The notes below the pieces were generated by a model. The model saw only the letters and a list, made by a program, of their open reading frames with translations. It did no database searches and had not been told where the DNA came from. Of a stretch of DNA of 64,000 nt, positions 2,252-36,352 are shown one piece after another (position 1 is the stretch's first letter; every line of letters starts with the position of its first letter). The DNA lies in sequence record NC_023693.1. One strand, 5' to 3'. This stretch comes from Escherichia phage phi92. The position numbers and the translations under genes are program-made.

Positions 2252-4665
2252 TGGCGAATTTTCCAACATATCCTGCTACGACACTAGAACAAGGTGTTGA
2301 TCTGGTTATATTCTCGTCTAACCAGATGCATGATGTTATTAATGGGGATGCTACAGCAACTGTAGAAACCGAAACAGGTTTAATACCTACACTGCGTAAA
2401 GCACTTGTTGATAACTTCTTCTTTAAGAGTCCTGTTGCTTGGTCAGCAGGATCAACTGAAACTGTATTTAACCAGTTACGTTATTTTGAAAACGGTATCT
2501 TGAGTGGGTACTATTATGCCCCATCTGCCACTACTGCGAACCCTGTACCTATGCAGGGCACACCTGTAGGGGACAGTAACTGGACTCTGTACGCTCTTAA
2601 AACTGAACAGTTAGCTTCAGATGTGTATCCTTGGTATTTTAAAGGTGCTACAGGATATGAAACAGAAATCAGTCCTCCTTATATCTTTGATAATGCTATT
2701 GTCACCATTAACGGTGTAATTCAGATTCAAGGTGAAGCATTTACTATCAAAGATAGTAAAATTATTCTGGCAGAACCATTAGGTTTAGATCCGTCTACTG
2801 GTCTACCTAACAAATTGTTTGCTTTTATTGGTAAAACAACAGCCTCTACTTCTTACGTAGAGAAAAACCTTTTGTCATCTACCACTGGTGCAGCAATGGT
2901 TGGTCTTCCATCTGGAGGCAACCTGTTACAAGCTCAATACTTTGTAACGCCTGAGCAGTTTGGTGCAATTGGTGATGGAGTTACCGATGATACTCAAGCA
3001 ATTTTAAAAACTATTACTTTCGCTAACACGAATAACATTCAAGTACGTGCAGATAAGAATTATAGATTCACAAGCTCAATTGCTATGTCTGGTGTTCGTT
3101 GGTATGGTGGTACATTCACTGGTAACGGTGGAACAATGATTTCTACTGTGTCCTGTTGGATGGAAAACGTTCGCTTTGAAAAATGTTATGTTAAGATGTT
3201 AGGTGGTGATTGCCGATTCTATCGTAATATCTTCTCCAACGCAACATCTACAGCAGCATTCTTAATGCAAGCAATGACAAGTGAAGGTACGTTGGACTTC
3301 AGTTACAACGAAATGTATGGTTGTAAATATGCGATCCTGCAACAAGGTACTGGAGAAGTAATGACCTATGGGCGTTACTCTAACAACTATATTCACGATA
3401 TCAAAGGTGATGCTATTGAACTTAACGTAGTTCAAAAACACTACACTGAAGGTTTGATTATCGAGAATAACCACATTGCTAACGTAGATGCTTCTGGACA
3501 AGGTGCAAACTGGGGTATTGGTATTGGTGTAGCAGGTAGTGGCCCATATGGTGTTGATGTTCCTGATTCACAATATGTACGTAACTTCAGTATCGTTGGG
3601 AATAGGGTTTACAATTGCCGTCAATGTCTACACGTTGAAATGGGTAAAAACTTCACGATACGTGATAATGAAGTTTATCCTAACACAGCAGTTTCAACAG
3701 GTACAGGTTTAACTACTTGTGGTGTTGCATTATACGGATGCCAAGATTTTGAAGTTGATGGTTTAACTGGTTATCTGCTTAATGATCCATCTGTTTCAAC
3801 ACGCATGGTCTTTATTGACTGGGGTGTTAACAATGGTAGATATGCGGGGCCACCAATTAACTTTACAATTAAGAATTTGGATATTCCAGAATCTTCAATT
3901 GAGATTGCAACATCTGGATCAGATGCCTGGGAAAACTCTACAATTGTTAGTAATATCAATTGTAATGTTTTTAAATGGCGTGGGCTACCATCTAGCTCTA
4001 CCTTTAATAATATTCGTTGCCGTAGTATTGACTTTATTGGTCAACACGGAAGCGGAGAAGGAAGTGGTGGCGGTTTCTATACTCGCAGCCAATTCACGTA
4101 TATGAAGTGGGTAGGATGTACAGCACTTAGCGGAGATGAAACAACAGTTTCTTTTGCTAAAATCTACACTGATCGTTGCGATCAGGTTGGAAATAACTTT
4201 GGTGTTCCAACTGCTGTTGATGGTACAGGTCATCGTGGGCCAGTTTTAACTACTATTTCTGAACAATATTTTACAGCTTATGATGAATTCCCAGGTGGGC
4301 GTGAATTCCCTACTGGAACAGTTATTCATTGTGCAAGCGGTAAAAAACATGTTGTTACAGTAGGTGGTGCTTTCTTTAGTGACAACGAGAAAATAAAAGC
4401 AACTGTTACAGGTCAAACCTATCTACAGTCTAATGCTTTAAACTGGGCTAGTAATGGCTACGCTAAAGCAGCAGGTACTAAGATTGTTATTCCAGGTGCA
4501 GGTGCAAATGGCGGCGATCTTGTGACAACTATAGCACGTGCTACATACGTGACAAATAGTTTGTACACAATAGATATTGCAGATCCAATTGTAACACCTA
4601 CAGCAGAGAATACACAAATTAAAGCTCTGAATCCTGTTACTTTTGTTACTGTCAATAATGCTTAA
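2251..4665 (+). CDS. tailspike / depolymerase with pectate-lyase-like beta-helix
   Basis: 804 aa; motif FGAIGDGVTDDTQAI typical of pectate-lyase-fold tailspikes; repetitive G/N/T/V-rich beta-strand segments. Confidence 0.65.
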   Translation: MANFPTYPATTLEQGVDLVIFSSNQMHDVINGDATATVETETGLIPTLRKALVDNFFFKSPVAWSAGSTETVFNQLRYFENGILSGYYYAPSATTANPVPMQGTPVGDSNWTLYALKTEQLASDVYPWYFKGATGYETEISPPYIFDNAIVTINGVIQIQGEAFTIKDSKIILAEPLGLDPSTGLPNKLFAFIGKTTASTSYVEKNLLSSTTGAAMVGLPSGGNLLQAQYFVTPEQFGAIGDGVTDDTQAILKTITFANTNNIQVRADKNYRFTSSIAMSGVRWYGGTFTGNGGTMISTVSCWMENVRFEKCYVKMLGGDCRFYRNIFSNATSTAAFLMQAMTSEGTLDFSYNEMYGCKYAILQQGTGEVMTYGRYSNNYIHDIKGDAIELNVVQKHYTEGLIIENNHIANVDASGQGANWGIGIGVAGSGPYGVDVPDSQYVRNFSIVGNRVYNCRQCLHVEMGKNFTIRDNEVYPNTAVSTGTGLTTCGVALYGCQDFEVDGLTGYLLNDPSVSTRMVFIDWGVNNGRYAGPPINFTIKNLDIPESSIEIATSGSDAWENSTIVSNINCNVFKWRGLPSSSTFNNIRCRSIDFIGQHGSGEGSGGGFYTRSQFTYMKWVGCTALSGDETTVSFAKIYTDRCDQVGNNFGVPTAVDGTGHRGPVLTTISEQYFTAYDEFPGGREFPTGTVIHCASGKKHVVTVGGAFFSDNEKIKATVTGQTYLQSNALNWASNGYAKAAGTKIVIPGAGANGGDLVTTIARATYVTNSLYTIDIADPIVTPTAENTQIKALNPVTFVTVNNA

Positions 4666-8837: not shown

Positions 8838-9525
8838 TTAGTCGTTCCTCCGCTTGCTTAAAAATATTTACATCGGCTTCACAGCCAAAGTATTCTCTAC
8901 CTGTTAAAAGTGCCGCAACTTGTGTTGTTGCACTTCCAGAGAAGAAGTCTAAGACTACATCTCCTTCGTTGGTGTGTATATTAATAAGGTCACAAAACAA
9001 AGTCAAGTGTTTTTGTGTTGGATGAAAACGATCTGCTCCTTGATAGATAGGATACTCAAACACACCCTTATGGTAGGAAGCATTGAAGGTTGGCTTCGAA
9101 CCTTTAACACAAACAATAGCCATCTCTTTAGCGTTACTAAGATAGTTAACACCACTGTTGATGGGTACAGGGTTTGTTTTAATCCATTCAATAGTACGGA
9201 ACATACGAAAACCAAGCGGTTCAAGGATTTCACGTAGCTCCTGGATCTTCCAGATATCATACCAAACTATGCAAGTACCACCTTTTCTAAGCACCCTGTA
9301 GGCTTCTTTGAATACTTCTTTAAAGTAAGGAATATCTACAACATCCCAATCACCAAAGTTGTAAGATACACGGAATCTATCCGTATCTTTTCCAGTCGGC
9401 TCTCCAGATTGAAAATTTGTGTCACGAGAAATAGCATATGGTGGGTCAGTAAGAATCAAATCTACACTATTGCTTTCGAGGGTTTGCAGGTAGTTTAATG
9501 CGGTGTTGTTTACAAATTCGCTCAT
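8794..9525 (-). CDS. DNA methyltransferase (N6-adenine or N4-cytosine, DPPY type)
   Basis: Motif IV LILTDPPYA precedes motif I VVLDFFSGSATT; RBS aaggag; no restriction endonuclease gene recognised nearby. Confidence 0.7.
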   Translation of the reverse strand: MSEFVNNTALNYLQTLESNSVDLILTDPPYAISRDTNFQSGEPTGKDTDRFRVSYNFGDWDVVDIPYFKEVFKEAYRVLRKGGTCIVWYDIWKIQELREILEPLGFRMFRTIEWIKTNPVPINSGVNYLSNAKEMAIVCVKGSKPTFNASYHKGVFEYPIYQGADRFHPTQKHLTLFCDLINIHTNEGDVVLDFFSGSATTQVAALLTGREYFGCEADVNIFKQAEERLNEYTEQQNHPESTD

Positions 9526-33717: not shown

Positions 33718-34188
33718 TTAGTCAGATTCCCAAATGTTGTCTTTCTTAATCCACATTCGTTGATTATCTGAACCTCTATAACGTTTCGTTGTTGGTTGAT
33801 TCATATCATACTTACCATCTATCACTATGTCAACCAGTTTTTTAATTTTTTCTGGAATTTCCTCAAAAAGATATCCTGTATATAAGACAATATCTTTTTT
33901 GTTTCCAAAACAATCTCTTACCTTCTCAAGAACATACTCTACAGTGTCAATGTTCTCTTTGTCAAGAGGTTCACCACCTAAAACTGTTAATCCTTTAATG
34001 AAAGGTCGAGATAAATCTTTCAAGATAAGATCTAATGTTTCAGTAGTGAACTCTTGTCCGTAGTTATACGACCAGGCTTTCTGGTTAAAGCAGCCACGGC
34101 AACCGTGGCTACAACCGCTCACCCACAAAGAGCATCTTACACCGTCACCGTTGAGCATGTCAACAGGTTCATATCCGGCGTAATTCAA
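33718..34188 (-). CDS. nrdG: anaerobic ribonucleotide reductase activating protein (radical SAM)
   Basis: CSHGCRGC radical-SAM cysteine cluster near N-terminus; 156 aa; adjacent to nrdD. Confidence 0.75.
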   Translation of the reverse strand: MNYAGYEPVDMLNGDGVRCSLWVSGCSHGCRGCFNQKAWSYNYGQEFTTETLDLILKDLSRPFIKGLTVLGGEPLDKENIDTVEYVLEKVRDCFGNKKDIVLYTGYLFEEIPEKIKKLVDIVIDGKYDMNQPTTKRYRGSDNQRMWIKKDNIWESD

Positions 34189-35164
34189 AAATGTTTCTCC
34201 CTTTCTAGTACCTCTTGCATTTTACCTTTATTATAAGGGCGAGAGTTAGGGGCAGAAAGGTATCCTGACACTCTTCTGATCACAGATATGGATTCTTCTT
34301 CATGATTACCGCAACTTGGACACTCGAAGCCTTTAGCCGTTGCTTTAAATTCACCATGAAAACCACATTTGAAACACTGATCTACAGGTTGGTTCACGCC
34401 AAAATAAGGAATTTTATTGTAGGCATAATCTACAAGAGTTTCCAGTGCTTGCAAGTTATTTTTAAGGTTTGGTGTTTCTACATAACCTATGTTCCCACCA
34501 TTACTAATTTGTGCAAAACCTTCCTCATAATCCCACTTTTGGAACGGGGTAGTGTGCATCCATACAGGTTGATGGAAAGAGTTTGTCAAGTAGTCACGAT
34601 CAATAGAACCAGGATAGCGATCATTTAACGCTTTGGCAAATTTATAGCACAAGGATTCTGCTGGTGTTCCATACAAACTAAAAGCTAAACCAGAACGTTC
34701 TTTAAATGTGCCACAGATATCCTTCATATATTGAAGGATGTTTTTACCCATTGCTTTTGGATTGGTGTTACCTGGGTATAAAATCTCCATAGCTTCTGCT
34801 AAACCTACATAACCGATACTAATAGAGGCATAACCACCTTCGAATAGTTTACCAATCTCTTCATTAGCTTCTAATCGAGCTAAAGCCCCTTCCATAAACA
34901 ATGTAGGGTTTTGAGATGCTTTGGTATGTCTAATACGGTTAACACGTAGCATATGTGCCTTATACGCCATCTCCATATGTTGTTCCAACAGTTCAGTAAA
35001 TAAGATGCCCTTTTCACGGGACTCTGCTGCAATGATAGGTAAGTTTAAAGAAACTACGCCTAAGTTGAAACGACCATCATATTTTTCACCTTGCTCTGTT
35101 GCATAGTATGACAAGAAACTTCTACACATTATGTTCAAAGTGGCTCGCAAGGCCACTCCCGCAC
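34185..35164 (-). CDS. nrdD: anaerobic ribonucleoside-triphosphate reductase, exon 2
   Basis: Glycyl-radical region RRVSGYL and C-terminal CFKCG...CPSCG zinc site; frame open upstream of the track start into the intron. Confidence 0.7.
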
Positions 35165-35398
35165 CATTACGTGCTGCTGCATGTCACCATGCAGATCAGA
35201 CTATATCTTCATGCTTAAAGCATGTCTACCATTTGGGGTGTCATAGGCTTACACCCTACGCTGCTACATTCATCACAGCTAGTCGTTAGGCATTTCGTAA
35301 CAGTACCCCCTTCTTCTGTGTTGGGAGTTCTGTTACGTTTAGCACGGGATTGTCTCGTTGAGAGTTCCCCCGTTTAGGCAGATTTTACATGAGCAGTT
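35165..35398 (-). ncRNA. group I intron (T4 td/nrdD-like), ORF-less; splice sites approximate
   Basis: About 235 nt interrupt nrdD; - strand reads ...TCTGCCTAAACGGGGGAACTCTCAACGAGACAATCCCGTGCTAAAC... closely resembling the conserved core of the T4 td intron as recalled from memory. Confidence 0.6.
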
Positions 35399-36263
35399 AT
35401 AGTTTACCCATGCTTGTGACGCGACCATCTGAAGATCCTGTAACTTCTTTGTTTAAAGGTACAGAGATAAAATCAGGATAAATGCGTTCAGCACAACACT
35501 CCATTGCCAGTTGCTTCAAATCATAGTTTGGATCGCCAGCTTTCATGTTAACACCATCTTCCAAGAAGAAGATAACTTTAGGAAACACAGGAGTTACCCT
35601 ATCTTTTCCTAATCCTTGTTTGTGCACCATTAGGTAGTTTTTAGTGATCATTCTACCAAAAGCAGAGGTATCCAAACCTAAACTAATTGTTATAAAAGGT
35701 GACTGACCATTTACACTCATTAGAGTGTTCACCTGGTAGATTAAAGTTTGCATTGCATCATAGACCTGTTTATCTACCATACGCATAGCAATATCATAAT
35801 CGCCAACATCGGCATATATTTTATTAAAACTTGCTTTAACGTATTGACTAAGCCCAGTATCAACATGTGCACAAGTTTGTCCACCATATTGGCTAGAAGC
35901 TACTGCTTGAATAATTTGAGTTAGGACAGTAGTCGCTACACCGATAGATTTTGGTTTTTCAATATGTGCATTACCAATACGGAAACCGTTCTCAAGCATA
36001 TCTTGGTAATTTACCAGGCAACAATTAGTTAAAGGTGAGAGTAAATAATCTAAATCGTGAATGTGACCATACCCACTTTTATGCCATTCTGCCAGATCTT
36101 CCGGTAAAATATGGGTCATTGCCATGTGCTTGCTTAGGATACCTGCTAGTAAATCTCGGTGAGTATTAACAATCATTGCAGGTTTGTTTGCATTTTCACG
36201 AGTAAATTCTTCGGATGTTTGTTCGAGGAATCCGATTACATCCTCATATAGTTTTTGGGTCAT
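35399..36263 (-). CDS. nrdD: anaerobic ribonucleoside-triphosphate reductase, exon 1
   Basis: 288 aa N-terminal portion ending a few codons into the intron; contiguous in function with exon 2. Confidence 0.7.
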
Positions 36264-36284
36264 TAATCCTCCGTGGAAAATAAA

Positions 36285-36301
36285 AGCCAGCTTAATGCTG
36301 G
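36285..36301 (-). terminator. terminator hairpin
   Basis: GCCAGC-TTAAT-GCTGGC with T-run on the - strand. Confidence 0.4.
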
Positions 36302-36352
36302 CTTTAGGGTGGATCTTTATTTTAAATCTTTTTCGTAAGATTGTCCTTGATC

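What the first reader, a model, noticed from the sequence alone, without database searches (positions are those of the whole stretch)
35165..35398. nrdD is split by a compact, ORF-less group I intron resembling the T4 td/nrdD intron core
The N-terminal (35399-36263) and C-terminal (34185-35164) parts of the anaerobic ribonucleotide reductase are separated by about 235 nt with stops in the exon-1 frame. The - strand insert contains TCTGCCTAAACGGGGGAACTCTCAACGAGACAATCCCGTGCTAAAC and a distal GATATAGTCTGATCTGCATGGTGACATGCAG segment, which closely resemble what I recall of the conserved catalytic core of T4 group I introns. Splicing after a U in exon 1 and at a G before GTGCGGGAG would restore the reading frame. 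This indicates intron mobility between T4-like and this otherwise non-T4-like phage.
Basis: partly seen in the sequence, partly recalled or inferred. Interest (0 to 1): 0.55.

Follow-up and report, generated by a model that had tools for sequence, protein, structure and literature searches.

The report
Endonuclease-less group I intron in nrdD

Summary
The window is a Justusliebigvirus (phi92-like) phage. Its nrdD (- strand) carries a group I intron at 35405..35127 (279 nt), not 35398..35165. Rfam RF00028 scores it 70.6 bits (cut-off 50). A 99%-identical intron-less relative (phage Paula) lacks exactly these 279 nt. Removing them gives an 1800-nt ORF one residue different from Paula's NrdD. Ten same-site introns support P1-P9.2 by covariation: 92.6% of cells paired and 31 pairs with compensatory changes. 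The intron lies between Gly286 and Cys287, which align with T4 Gly289 and Cys290.

Close relatives show three states: no intron, intron plus an I-HmuI-like HNH endonuclease ORF in the P6 loop, and ORF-less. The window's copy is a 490-bp deletion derivative. A second ORF-less type has different endpoints, so it arose independently.

The same intron, at the same codon and followed by the same recoded block TGTAGAAGTTTC, occurs in Vequintavirus and in the T4-related phage JSE. A Phapecoctavirus shows a 33-38 nt one-sided co-conversion tract. T4's own nrdD intron is a more distant relative (about 70% identity) at a different site.

Verdict: a new member of a known kind, of modest interest. Splicing itself is inferred, not shown.

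The parts
35406..36263 (-). nrdD exon 1 (codons 1-286, ends ...ACA AGC ATG GGT)
   Evidence: ORF list. Boundary from the intron-less Paula allele. The spliced product matches T4 NrdD 1h78 at E 1.4e-164.
35127..35405 (-). Group I intron, 279 nt, IA-type architecture, no ORF
   Evidence: Rfam RF00028 70.6 bits. Exactly these 279 nt are absent from Paula. Covariation on 10 homologs. Fold z-score -4.05.
34185..35126 (-). nrdD exon 2 (starts TGT = Cys287, equivalent to T4 Cys290; includes the RRVSGYL glycyl-radical motif and the stop codon)
35387..35413 (-). P1: the last 8 nt of exon 1 (35413..35406, GCAUGGGU) pair with the internal guide sequence (intron nt 12-19, 35394..35387, GCUCAUGU). There is a U.G wobble at the 5' splice site.
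   Evidence: Unconstrained MFE fold. 93.8% of cells paired, with one compensatory pair.
35398..35402 (-). Candidate P10 guide (intron nt 4-8, CUAUA), which would pair with exon 2 nt 1-5 (UGUAG, 35126..35122)
   Evidence: Read from the sequence. 80% of cells paired but no covariation: inconclusive.
35225..35382 (-). P3 (intron 24-29 with 176-181), enclosing P4/P5 (33-62), P6/P6a/P6b (63-116), the P7 5' strand (122-126), P7.1 (127-146) and P7.2 (150-170)
   Evidence: P3 4/6, P7.1 3/5 and P7.2 5/6 pairs have changes on both sides.
35303..35304 (-). Deletion scar in the P6 loop. Relatives carry 490 nt here that hold a 169-aa I-HmuI-like HNH endonuclease ORF. The deletion endpoints share the trinucleotide CTG.
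35199..35224 (-). P8 (intron 182-196), J8/7 and the P7 3' strand (203-207; GAAGAUAUAGUC, the invariant catalytic-core segment)
   Evidence: P7 is invariant in all 10 sequences
35139..35194 (-). P9 with a GUGA tetraloop (212-229), P9.1 (232-245) and P9.2 (249-267).
   Evidence: 5/6 pairs of P9.2 have changes on both sides
35127..35127 (-). Terminal G of the intron (omega G) at the 3' splice site
   Evidence: Boundary from Paula. The alternative register shifted by one base would give G at -1 and U at omega.
35115..35126 (-). Recoded exon block TGTAGAAGTTTC (Cys-Arg-Ser-Phe). It accompanies the intron in four phage genera; intron-less alleles have TG(C/T) CGN (AG(C/T)/TCC) TT(C/T).
33718..34188 (-). 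nrdG (activase), overlapping the nrdD stop codon; same operon
   Evidence: ORF list. Annotation of Paula and arall.
36283..36305 (-). Terminator-like hairpin of the upstream gene, just before the nrdD ribosome-binding site
   Evidence: Annotated as a terminator in Paula.

Best explanation
[quoted passage not shown] It occupies window 35405..35127 on the - strand and is transcribed as part of the nrdD-nrdG mRNA. The last eight bases of exon 1 pair with the intron's guide sequence (P1), placing a U.G wobble at the 5' splice site. By the standard group I mechanism (inferred here), exogenous guanosine bound in P7 attacks after U35406. The freed exon 1 then attacks after the terminal G35127, possibly aligned by a 5-bp P10. 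This joins ...ATGGGT to TGTAGA... and yields a 599-aa NrdD whose catalytic Cys codon is the first codon of exon 2. The intron was once mobile. Relatives carry an I-HmuI-like HNH homing endonuclease gene in the P6 loop, with its last seven codons lying in the ribozyme core. The window's copy lost that gene by a 490-bp deletion. It is therefore a stranded passenger that can spread only by ordinary recombination or if a co-infecting relative supplies the enzyme. Shown here: sequence and structure membership, exact boundaries, ORF restoration, the deletion origin, and population signatures of homing. Inferred: the catalytic steps, splicing in vivo, and endonuclease activity and specificity.
For: Rfam RF00028 gives 70.6 bits against a cut-off of 50, E 6.6e-16, the only hit in 64 kb. 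Five other compact same-site introns score 51-75 bits, and intron-less Paula gives no hit. Paula is about 99% identical in the flanks and lacks exactly 279 nt. The spliced ORF is 1800 nt, differs from Paula NrdD at 1 aa, and aligns end to end with T4 NrdD, junction at T4 G289|C290. The MFE fold recovers P1, P3-P6b, P7.1, P7.2, P8 and P9 without constraints, with z = -4.05. On 10 same-site introns, 92.6% of cells are paired against 29-46% in slid controls. 31 pairs have changes on both sides against 5-10 in the controls, and 0/500 shuffles reach that. For the deletion origin: arall and nepoznato have an identical intron plus 490 nt holding an HNH_3 + I-HmuI NUMOD-like ORF, which matches PDB 1u3e at E 8e-9. 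The AMO3598-type ORF-less intron keeps the ORF remnant TTATGATTATGAGTT with different endpoints. For mobility: three allelic states occur within one genus. The same site and the same 12-nt exon block occur in Vequintavirus, Krischvirus JSE and Phapecoctavirus. Intron identity exceeds exon identity: 84-90% against 66-74% for JEP1, and 79-81% against 59-68% for JSE. Nepoznato's exon 1 is 180/180 identical to intron-less ESCO5, but exon 2 nt 1-38 are of the window type. Intron-bearing NrdD alleles diverged to 49-67% aa identity keep intact ORFs and the RRVSGYL motif, implying long-term splicing.
Against: No RNA data: splicing of this intron has not been demonstrated in any record or paper I could find. 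P10 is short and shows no covariation. The higher identity of intron than exons could partly reflect structural constraint on the ribozyme rather than transfer. The direction of transfer between phage families cannot be determined. Whether loss of the P6-loop ORF affects folding or splicing rate is unknown.
Confidence: 0.9

Rival explanations
1. The intron has the reader's boundaries (35398..35165, about 234 nt) and splices at the G before GTGCGGGAG, giving an NrdD with 15 extra residues.
For: That junction is also in frame and free of stop codons.
Against: The intron-less allele lacks 279 nt, not 234. T4 NrdD and all intron-less homologs have no insertion before the Cys. The 38 disputed nt form P9.1/P9.2 with compensatory changes. 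All homologs end ...AAUG immediately before the Cys codon.
Confidence: 0.02
2. The insert no longer splices. Either nrdD is expressed as two polypeptides that assemble, as reported for Aeh1 NrdA split by mobE (summarised in PMC3653736 and PMC7344957), or it is a pseudogene.
For: GenBank records annotate two separate CDSs. A GTG at 35156 opens the downstream ORF. Loss of the endonuclease shows the element is decaying.
Against: Every core helix is intact, and the ribozyme is 100% identical to that of the endonuclease-bearing copies. The break would fall in the active-site finger loop, directly at the catalytic Cys. The GTG lies inside P9.1/P9.2. Intron-bearing alleles have kept intact exons and catalytic motifs over deep divergence.
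Confidence: 0.05
3. The ORF-less form is ancestral, and the endonuclease gene later invaded the P6 loop in arall-like phages.
For: Naturally compact same-site introns with a minimal P6a and no ORF remnant exist (L021, L052). So ORF-less ancestors of the family as a whole are plausible.
Against: Endonuclease ORFs only about 50% identical in protein occupy the same loop, with the same overlap into the core, in JSE, JEP1, F97 and arall. The window's ribozyme is 100% identical to arall's on both sides of the indel. The sister ORF-less type retains 15 nt of ORF-specific sequence. The window retains the P6b hairpin and Shine-Dalgarno-like GGGGG that precede the ORF in arall.
Confidence: 0.05

Closest known systems
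Phage JSE (Krischvirus, RB49-like) and Vequintavirus (e.g. JEP1) nrdD introns with an HNH ORF; annotated only as split CDS plus 'homing endonuclease' in GenBank
   Same: Identical insertion point (ATGGGT|...|TGTAGAAGTTTC). Same helices P1-P9.2. 79-90% identity. The ORF sits in the P6 loop and ends YEMPND* inside the core.
   Different: The window's copy lacks the 490-nt ORF segment, and the host genome belongs to a different subfamily (Stephanstirmvirinae). I found no publication describing these introns. Petrov et al. 2010 (PMC2993671) mention a JSE intron only in gene 43.
T4 nrdD (sunY) intron with I-TevII
   Same: Same host gene and the same IA-type architecture, with P7.1/P7.2 and P9.1/P9.2. 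70.5% identity over 78% of the window's intron. Rfam hit of 105 bits.
   Different: T4's intron is inserted inside codon Tyr180, not before Cys290, and T4 is intron-less at this site. T4's ORF is a GIY-YIG enzyme located 3' of P9. T4's intron is about 1 kb (my recollection: 1033 nt).
T4 nrdB intron (defunct I-TevIII) and the Goddard-Burt homing-endonuclease cycle
   Same: An intron whose HNH endonuclease gene has been inactivated by deletion while the ribozyme persists. Empty, ORF-bearing and ORF-less alleles coexist (PMC1865063 abstract; PMC2988022).
   Different: Here the deletion removes almost the entire ORF. It happened at least twice independently, and all three states are sampled within one genus.
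I-HmuI (Bacillus phage SPO1 DNA polymerase intron, PDB 1u3e)
   Same: The relatives' intron ORF aligns with it over its full length (E 8e-9) and has HNH_3 plus NUMOD-like domains. The one-sided co-conversion in exon 2 would fit a cut site downstream of the insertion point.
   Different: Different host gene and intron. The enzyme is absent from the window. Activity and cut site are untested.

Membership tests
Group I intron (Rfam RF00028) | Covariance-model score at or above the curated gathering score | tested here: met
   70.6 bits against 50, E 6.6e-16, full model 1-253
Group I intron (Rfam RF00028) | Conserved core helices P3-P8 including the P3/P7 pseudoknot, supported by compensatory changes | tested here: met
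   P3 4/6, P4 2/6, P7.1 3/5 and P7.2 5/6 pairs have changes on both sides. P7 is invariant (uninformative but intact). Overall 92.6% paired against at most 46% in slid controls.
Group I intron (Rfam RF00028) | P1 formed by the 5' exon and an internal guide sequence, with U.G at the 5' splice site | tested here: met
   GCAUGGGU/GCUCAUGU in the MFE fold. U.G in 8 of 10 homologs and C.A in 2; one compensatory pair.
Group I intron (Rfam RF00028) | Terminal G (omega G) at the 3' splice site, and precise excision that restores the host ORF | tested here: met
   The intron ends ...AUAAUG. The in-silico splice gives 599 aa, 1 aa different from the intron-less Paula NrdD.
Group I intron (Rfam RF00028) | Guanosine-initiated self-splicing of the RNA | not testable with these tools
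   Needs an in-vitro GTP-labelling or splicing assay, or RT-PCR.
Subgroup IA (T4-type) group I introns | Extra hairpins P7.1 and P7.2 between the P7 5' strand and the P3 3' strand | tested here: met
   Intron nt 127-146 and 150-170, both with compensatory changes. The definition of the subgroup is from my knowledge of Michel & Westhof 1990. No subgroup-specific models were run.
Ortholog of the T4 nrdD (sunY) intron | Same insertion site in nrdD | tested here: not met
   The T4 intron lies inside codon Tyr180. T4 reads ATGGGT|TGCCGT without interruption at the Cys290 site.
Ortholog of the T4 nrdD (sunY) intron | GIY-YIG endonuclease I-TevII encoded 3' of the catalytic core | tested here: not met
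   There is no ORF in the window. Relatives carry an HNH ORF in the P6 loop.
Relative of the T4 td intron | Sequence similarity beyond the universally conserved core | tested here: not met
   Only intron nt 172-230 (P3'-P8-J8/7-P7-P9) match td, at 84%.
Mobile (homing) intron | Intron-encoded homing endonuclease gene present | tested here: not met
   No ORF in the intron and no homolog anywhere in the 64-kb window. Present in arall, phiWec187, VEcB, nepoznato, JEP1, JSE and F97.
Mobile (homing) intron | Presence/absence polymorphism at one site, with co-conversion of flanking exon sequence | tested here: met
   Intron-less, ORF-bearing and ORF-less alleles occur with about 99% identical flanks. 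There is a 33-38 nt exon-2 tract in nepoznato.

The most novel reading that the evidence does not exclude
The 12-nt exon block TGTAGAAGTTTC travels with the intron across four phage genera. It may be a functional part of the mobile element rather than a neutral co-conversion scar. It recodes Cys-Arg-Ser so that exon 2 can form a 5/5 P10 with the intron (only 3/5 with the native TGCCG), and it may at the same time destroy the endonuclease's target. The ORF-less intron could then persist because it protects nrdD from cleavage by endonuclease-bearing relatives during co-infection. Together with the three allelic states, this would make the phi92-like phages a tractable natural system for watching the whole homing cycle, including spread between phage families that a 2010 review (PMC2993671) said lacked convincing evidence.
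Probability: 0.35. Interest if true: 0.45.

Novelty: new member of a known kind. Interest (0 to 1): 0.3.

Why it matters
In practical terms, database records of these widely used therapeutic-candidate coliphages annotate nrdD as two genes or as hypothetical proteins. The correct annotation is one 599-aa NrdD made from joined exons: join(36263..35406, 35126..34185) on the - strand. In biological terms, the locus gives a compact natural series: an empty site, an intron with its endonuclease, and two independent endonuclease-less derivatives. It also shows a mapped one-sided co-conversion tract, and the same element at the same codon in three unrelated myovirus lineages. That is direct sequence evidence that phage group I introns cross family boundaries. 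None of this changes what is known about how group I introns work.

Tried and rejected
The intron-less allele and the U(-1)/omega-G rule decided the matter. A register shifted by one base (exon 1 ending in G, intron ending in U) gives the same protein, but it breaks both group I rules.

Rfam at gathering threshold does not detect the ORF-bearing homologs, because the ORF interrupts P6. They had to be delimited by alignment and trimmed by hand.

My first regular expressions for splice sites in the 63 IMG/VR contigs missed most 3' ends, and most of those contigs proved to hold related introns in other genes. Only L021, L041, L052, L024 and L072 were usable.

P10 could not be supported by covariation.

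The phi92 genome paper (PMC3457257) is not in the held library, so I could not check whether it mentions the split gene gp192/gp192A. A search for the role of T4 Cys290 found no held paper, so that role rests on my knowledge of Logan et al. 1999 and Andersson et al. 2001.

The neighbourhood annotation of the closest relative, KKP_3264, is almost entirely 'hypothetical protein' and added nothing.

Exact counts of allelic states are approximate, because BLAST joins pieces across short introns.

Full report
**1. What is in the sequence**

On the - strand, an 866-nt ORF (36263..35397, including its stop codon) and a 972-nt ORF (35156..34185) encode the N- and C-terminal parts of the anaerobic ribonucleotide reductase large subunit NrdD. 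nrdG follows at 34188..33718. A scan of the whole window against Rfam gives a single hit, at the gathering threshold and also at E<=0.1. It is Intron_gpI (RF00028) at 35451..35177 on the - strand: 70.6 bits against a cut-off of 50, E 6.6e-16, covering the full model.

**2. Where the window comes from, and the exact boundaries**

The region is 98-99.6% identical to phages of the genus Justusliebigvirus (phi92-like, Stephanstirmvirinae), for example Serratia phage KKP_3264, Escherichia phages arall and VEcB. Close relatives fall into three classes:
- the same insert;
- the insert plus 490 nt;
- no insert.

Phage Paula has an uninterrupted 1800-nt nrdD. Aligning it with the window shows that the window has exactly 279 extra nucleotides, 35405..35127. 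Exon 1 ends ...AGCATGGGT (35406) and exon 2 starts TGTAGAAGTTTC (35126).

Joining 36263..35406 to 35126..34185 gives 1800 nt and a 599-aa protein with one difference from Paula's NrdD. This protein aligns end to end with T4 NrdD (PDB 1h78, E 1.4e-164). The junction lies between the residues equivalent to T4 Gly289 and Cys290. From my knowledge of the T4 enzyme, Cys290 is the thiyl-radical cysteine at the tip of the active-site finger loop.

A register shifted by one base would also give the right protein, but would put G at -1 and U at the intron's end. Only the 35406|35405 and 35127|35126 assignment gives the canonical U at -1 and terminal G.

**3. RNA structure**

An unconstrained fold of the intron with 12 nt of each exon recovers these elements:
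- P1: exon GCAUGGGU with intron nt 12-19 GCUCAUGU, with a U.G wobble at the splice site.
- P3, P4, P5, and P6/P6a/P6b.
- P7.1 and P7.2.
- P8.
- P9, which has a GUGA tetraloop.

P9.1 and P9.2, read from the sequence and present in the fold of the intron alone, make up the 3' tail. The intron alone folds at -91.4 kcal/mol, z = -4.05 against shuffles. P7 (GACUA/UAGUC) forms the usual pseudoknot with P3. There is no P2. The P7.1/P7.2 pair between P7 and P3' is the mark of subgroup IA, to which the T4 introns belong (my knowledge; no subgroup models were run).

I collected ten introns at the same codon:
- the window;
- AMO3598;
- nepoznato, JEP1, JSE and Vibrio phage F97, with their ORFs trimmed out;
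- four metagenomic viral contigs.

I aligned them and counted pairs for my proposed structure. The results were as follows:
- 92.6% of cells form standard pairs, against 29-46% when the 3' partners are slid by 1-3 columns.
- 31 of 83 pairs show changes on both sides, against 5-10 in the slid controls.
- No shuffle out of 500 reaches the observed values.
- P7 and most of P9 are invariant.
- P10 (exon 2 UGUAG with intron CUAUA) is possible but has no covariation.

The five compact homologs independently pass Rfam's threshold at 51-75 bits.

**4. The intron is an endonuclease-less derivative**

In arall, phiWec187, VEcB, SD2, nepoznato and others, the same intron holds 490 more nucleotides in the P6 loop (769-770 nt in total). 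Both flanks are 100% identical to the window's intron. The extra DNA encodes a 169-aa protein with HNH_3 and I-HmuI NUMOD-like domains. It is homologous over its full length to I-HmuI (PDB 1u3e, E 8e-9). Its last seven codons (CYEMPND*) are made of the P6a 3' strand, J6/7 and P7.

Orthologous ORFs only about 50% identical in protein sit in the same loop, with the same overlap, in JSE and Vibrio phage F97. The ORF-bearing state is therefore old.

The window lacks the ORF between two CTG trinucleotides (35304|35303). A second ORF-less type (AMO3598 and an IMG/VR copy; by length also ECGD1, PD06, PD211 and pEC-M2929-1AR.1) has different endpoints and still carries 15 nt of ORF-specific sequence (TTATGATTATGAGTT). 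The endonuclease gene has therefore been deleted at least twice. No homolog of it exists elsewhere in the window.

**5. Evidence of mobility**

Among the best 28 intron hits, 11 records have the window-type ORF-less intron, 6 the AMO3598 type and 11 the ORF-bearing form. Many equally close relatives are intron-less: Paula, Antha, outra, J-01, ESCO32, ZYD, EmilieFrey, PHB05 and others.

The same intron sits at the same codon in several other lineages:
- Vequintavirus (JEP1 and others);
- the T4-related Krischvirus JSE;
- a Vibrio phage;
- two divergent metagenomic nrdD genes.

Intron identity to the window exceeds exon identity. Against JEP1 it is 84-90% versus 66-74%. Against JSE it is 79-81% versus 59-68%.

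Every enterobacterial intron-bearing allele starts exon 2 with TGTAGAAGTTT. Six intron-less alleles from six genera use CGN for the arginine: TGCCGTAGC, TGTCGTTCC, TGCCGGAGT, TGCCGTAGT, TGTCGAAGC, TGCCGTAGT.

The clearest case is nepoznato, a Phapecoctavirus with the ORF-bearing intron. Its exon 1 is 180/180 identical to the intron-less Phapecoctavirus ESCO5. Exon 2 nt 1-38 are identical to the window's allele, with 10 differences from ESCO5 in the first 33 nt. From nt 39 on it is again ESCO5-type. This is a one-sided co-conversion tract, the classical footprint of endonuclease-driven homing described for T4 (PMC2988022).

**6. Relation to the T4 introns**

T4's nrdD intron is a relative: 70.5% identity over 78% of the query, with an Rfam score of 105 bits. 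It differs in three ways. It interrupts codon Tyr180, it carries the GIY-YIG enzyme I-TevII after P9, and T4 has an uninterrupted ATGGGT|TGCCGT at the Cys290 site. Similarity to td is limited to 59 nt of the universal core.

**7. Function and rivals**

The best explanation (confidence about 0.9) is a splicing-competent group I ribozyme whose removal yields full-length NrdD. The catalytic steps are inferred from the family. Intron-bearing alleles that have diverged to 49-67% protein identity keep intact exons and the glycyl-radical motif RRVSGYL, which argues that these introns splice.

The rivals are each at 0.05 or less, for the reasons given in their entries:
- a non-splicing insert giving two polypeptides or a pseudogene;
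- an ancestral ORF-less state.

**8. Novelty**

Group I introns in phage ribonucleotide reductase genes, endonuclease loss and homing with co-conversion are textbook matters (PMC2988022, PMC3653736). Splicing of HNH-bearing introns has been shown by RT-PCR in the related Certrevirus CB7, for other genes (PMC7344957). I found no paper describing this intron in phi92-like, rV5-like or JSE nrdD. GenBank records annotate split CDSs.

A 2010 review stated that there was no convincing evidence of T-even introns crossing phage clusters (PMC2993671). The distribution found here is such evidence, for a related intron.

I rate this a new member of a known kind, with interest about 0.3.

Noticed in passing
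L024 about 4114-4395 and L072 about 9089-9330 (IMG/VR contigs 3300020047_003967 and 3300013939_000002): Same-site nrdD introns in divergent nrdD genes end exon 1 with C (ATGGGC|), opposite an A of the guide sequence (UACCCAUC). This is a natural C.A in place of the near-universal U.G at the 5' splice site, with compensatory changes elsewhere in P1. Both pass Rfam's threshold (51 and 70.6 bits).
   Followed up: partly
L007 (JEP1) about 407-1287; L021 and L052 upstream of the Cys-site intron: Vequintavirus-type nrdD genes carry a second intron about 95 codons upstream, at T4 numbering Gly190|Gln191. JEP1's copy has an HNH ORF; the copies in L021 and L052 are ORF-less. Together with T4's site inside codon Tyr180, nrdD has at least three distinct intron insertion sites. 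Rfam at gathering threshold did not call the upstream introns.
   Followed up: partly
GenBank MG065639, MG065645, MG065656, MG065689, MG065662 and others ('Campylobacter phage' A150, A145, C3, A110a, A142 ...): These records are 99-100% identical to coliphage Justusliebigvirus/Vequintavirus sequence in this region, so the Campylobacter host label looks doubtful.
   Followed up: no
L011-L073 (63 IMG/VR contigs): The 30-mer spanning J8/7-P7-P9 occurs in 63 viral contigs, mostly in genes other than nrdD. These copies have the same P9.1/P9.2 tail (CAGCNG...GGG...GCGA...CTGAACA...ATG). This points to a large, widely dispersed family of closely related IA introns.
   Followed up: partly
window 35397-35405 (- strand): The exon-1 reading frame runs into the intron and stops at UAA, nt 7-9 of the intron, inside the P1 loop just before the guide sequence. 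All ten homologs have an early in-frame stop. This would keep ribosomes from unwinding the ribozyme core, as has been discussed for T4 td (my recollection).
   Followed up: no
window 35305-35328 (- strand), intron nt 78-101: The P6b hairpin (ACUCCC...GGGGGU) that remains in the ORF-less intron contains the purine-rich GGGGG. In arall this lies 6-10 nt upstream of the endonuclease ATG. The likely ribosome-binding site of the lost gene was therefore sequestered in a hairpin, as is known for other phage homing endonuclease genes.
   Followed up: no
window 1-64000: There is no other Rfam family hit on either strand even at E<=0.1 (no tRNA, riboswitch or second intron). There is also no homolog of the intron endonuclease.
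   Followed up: yes
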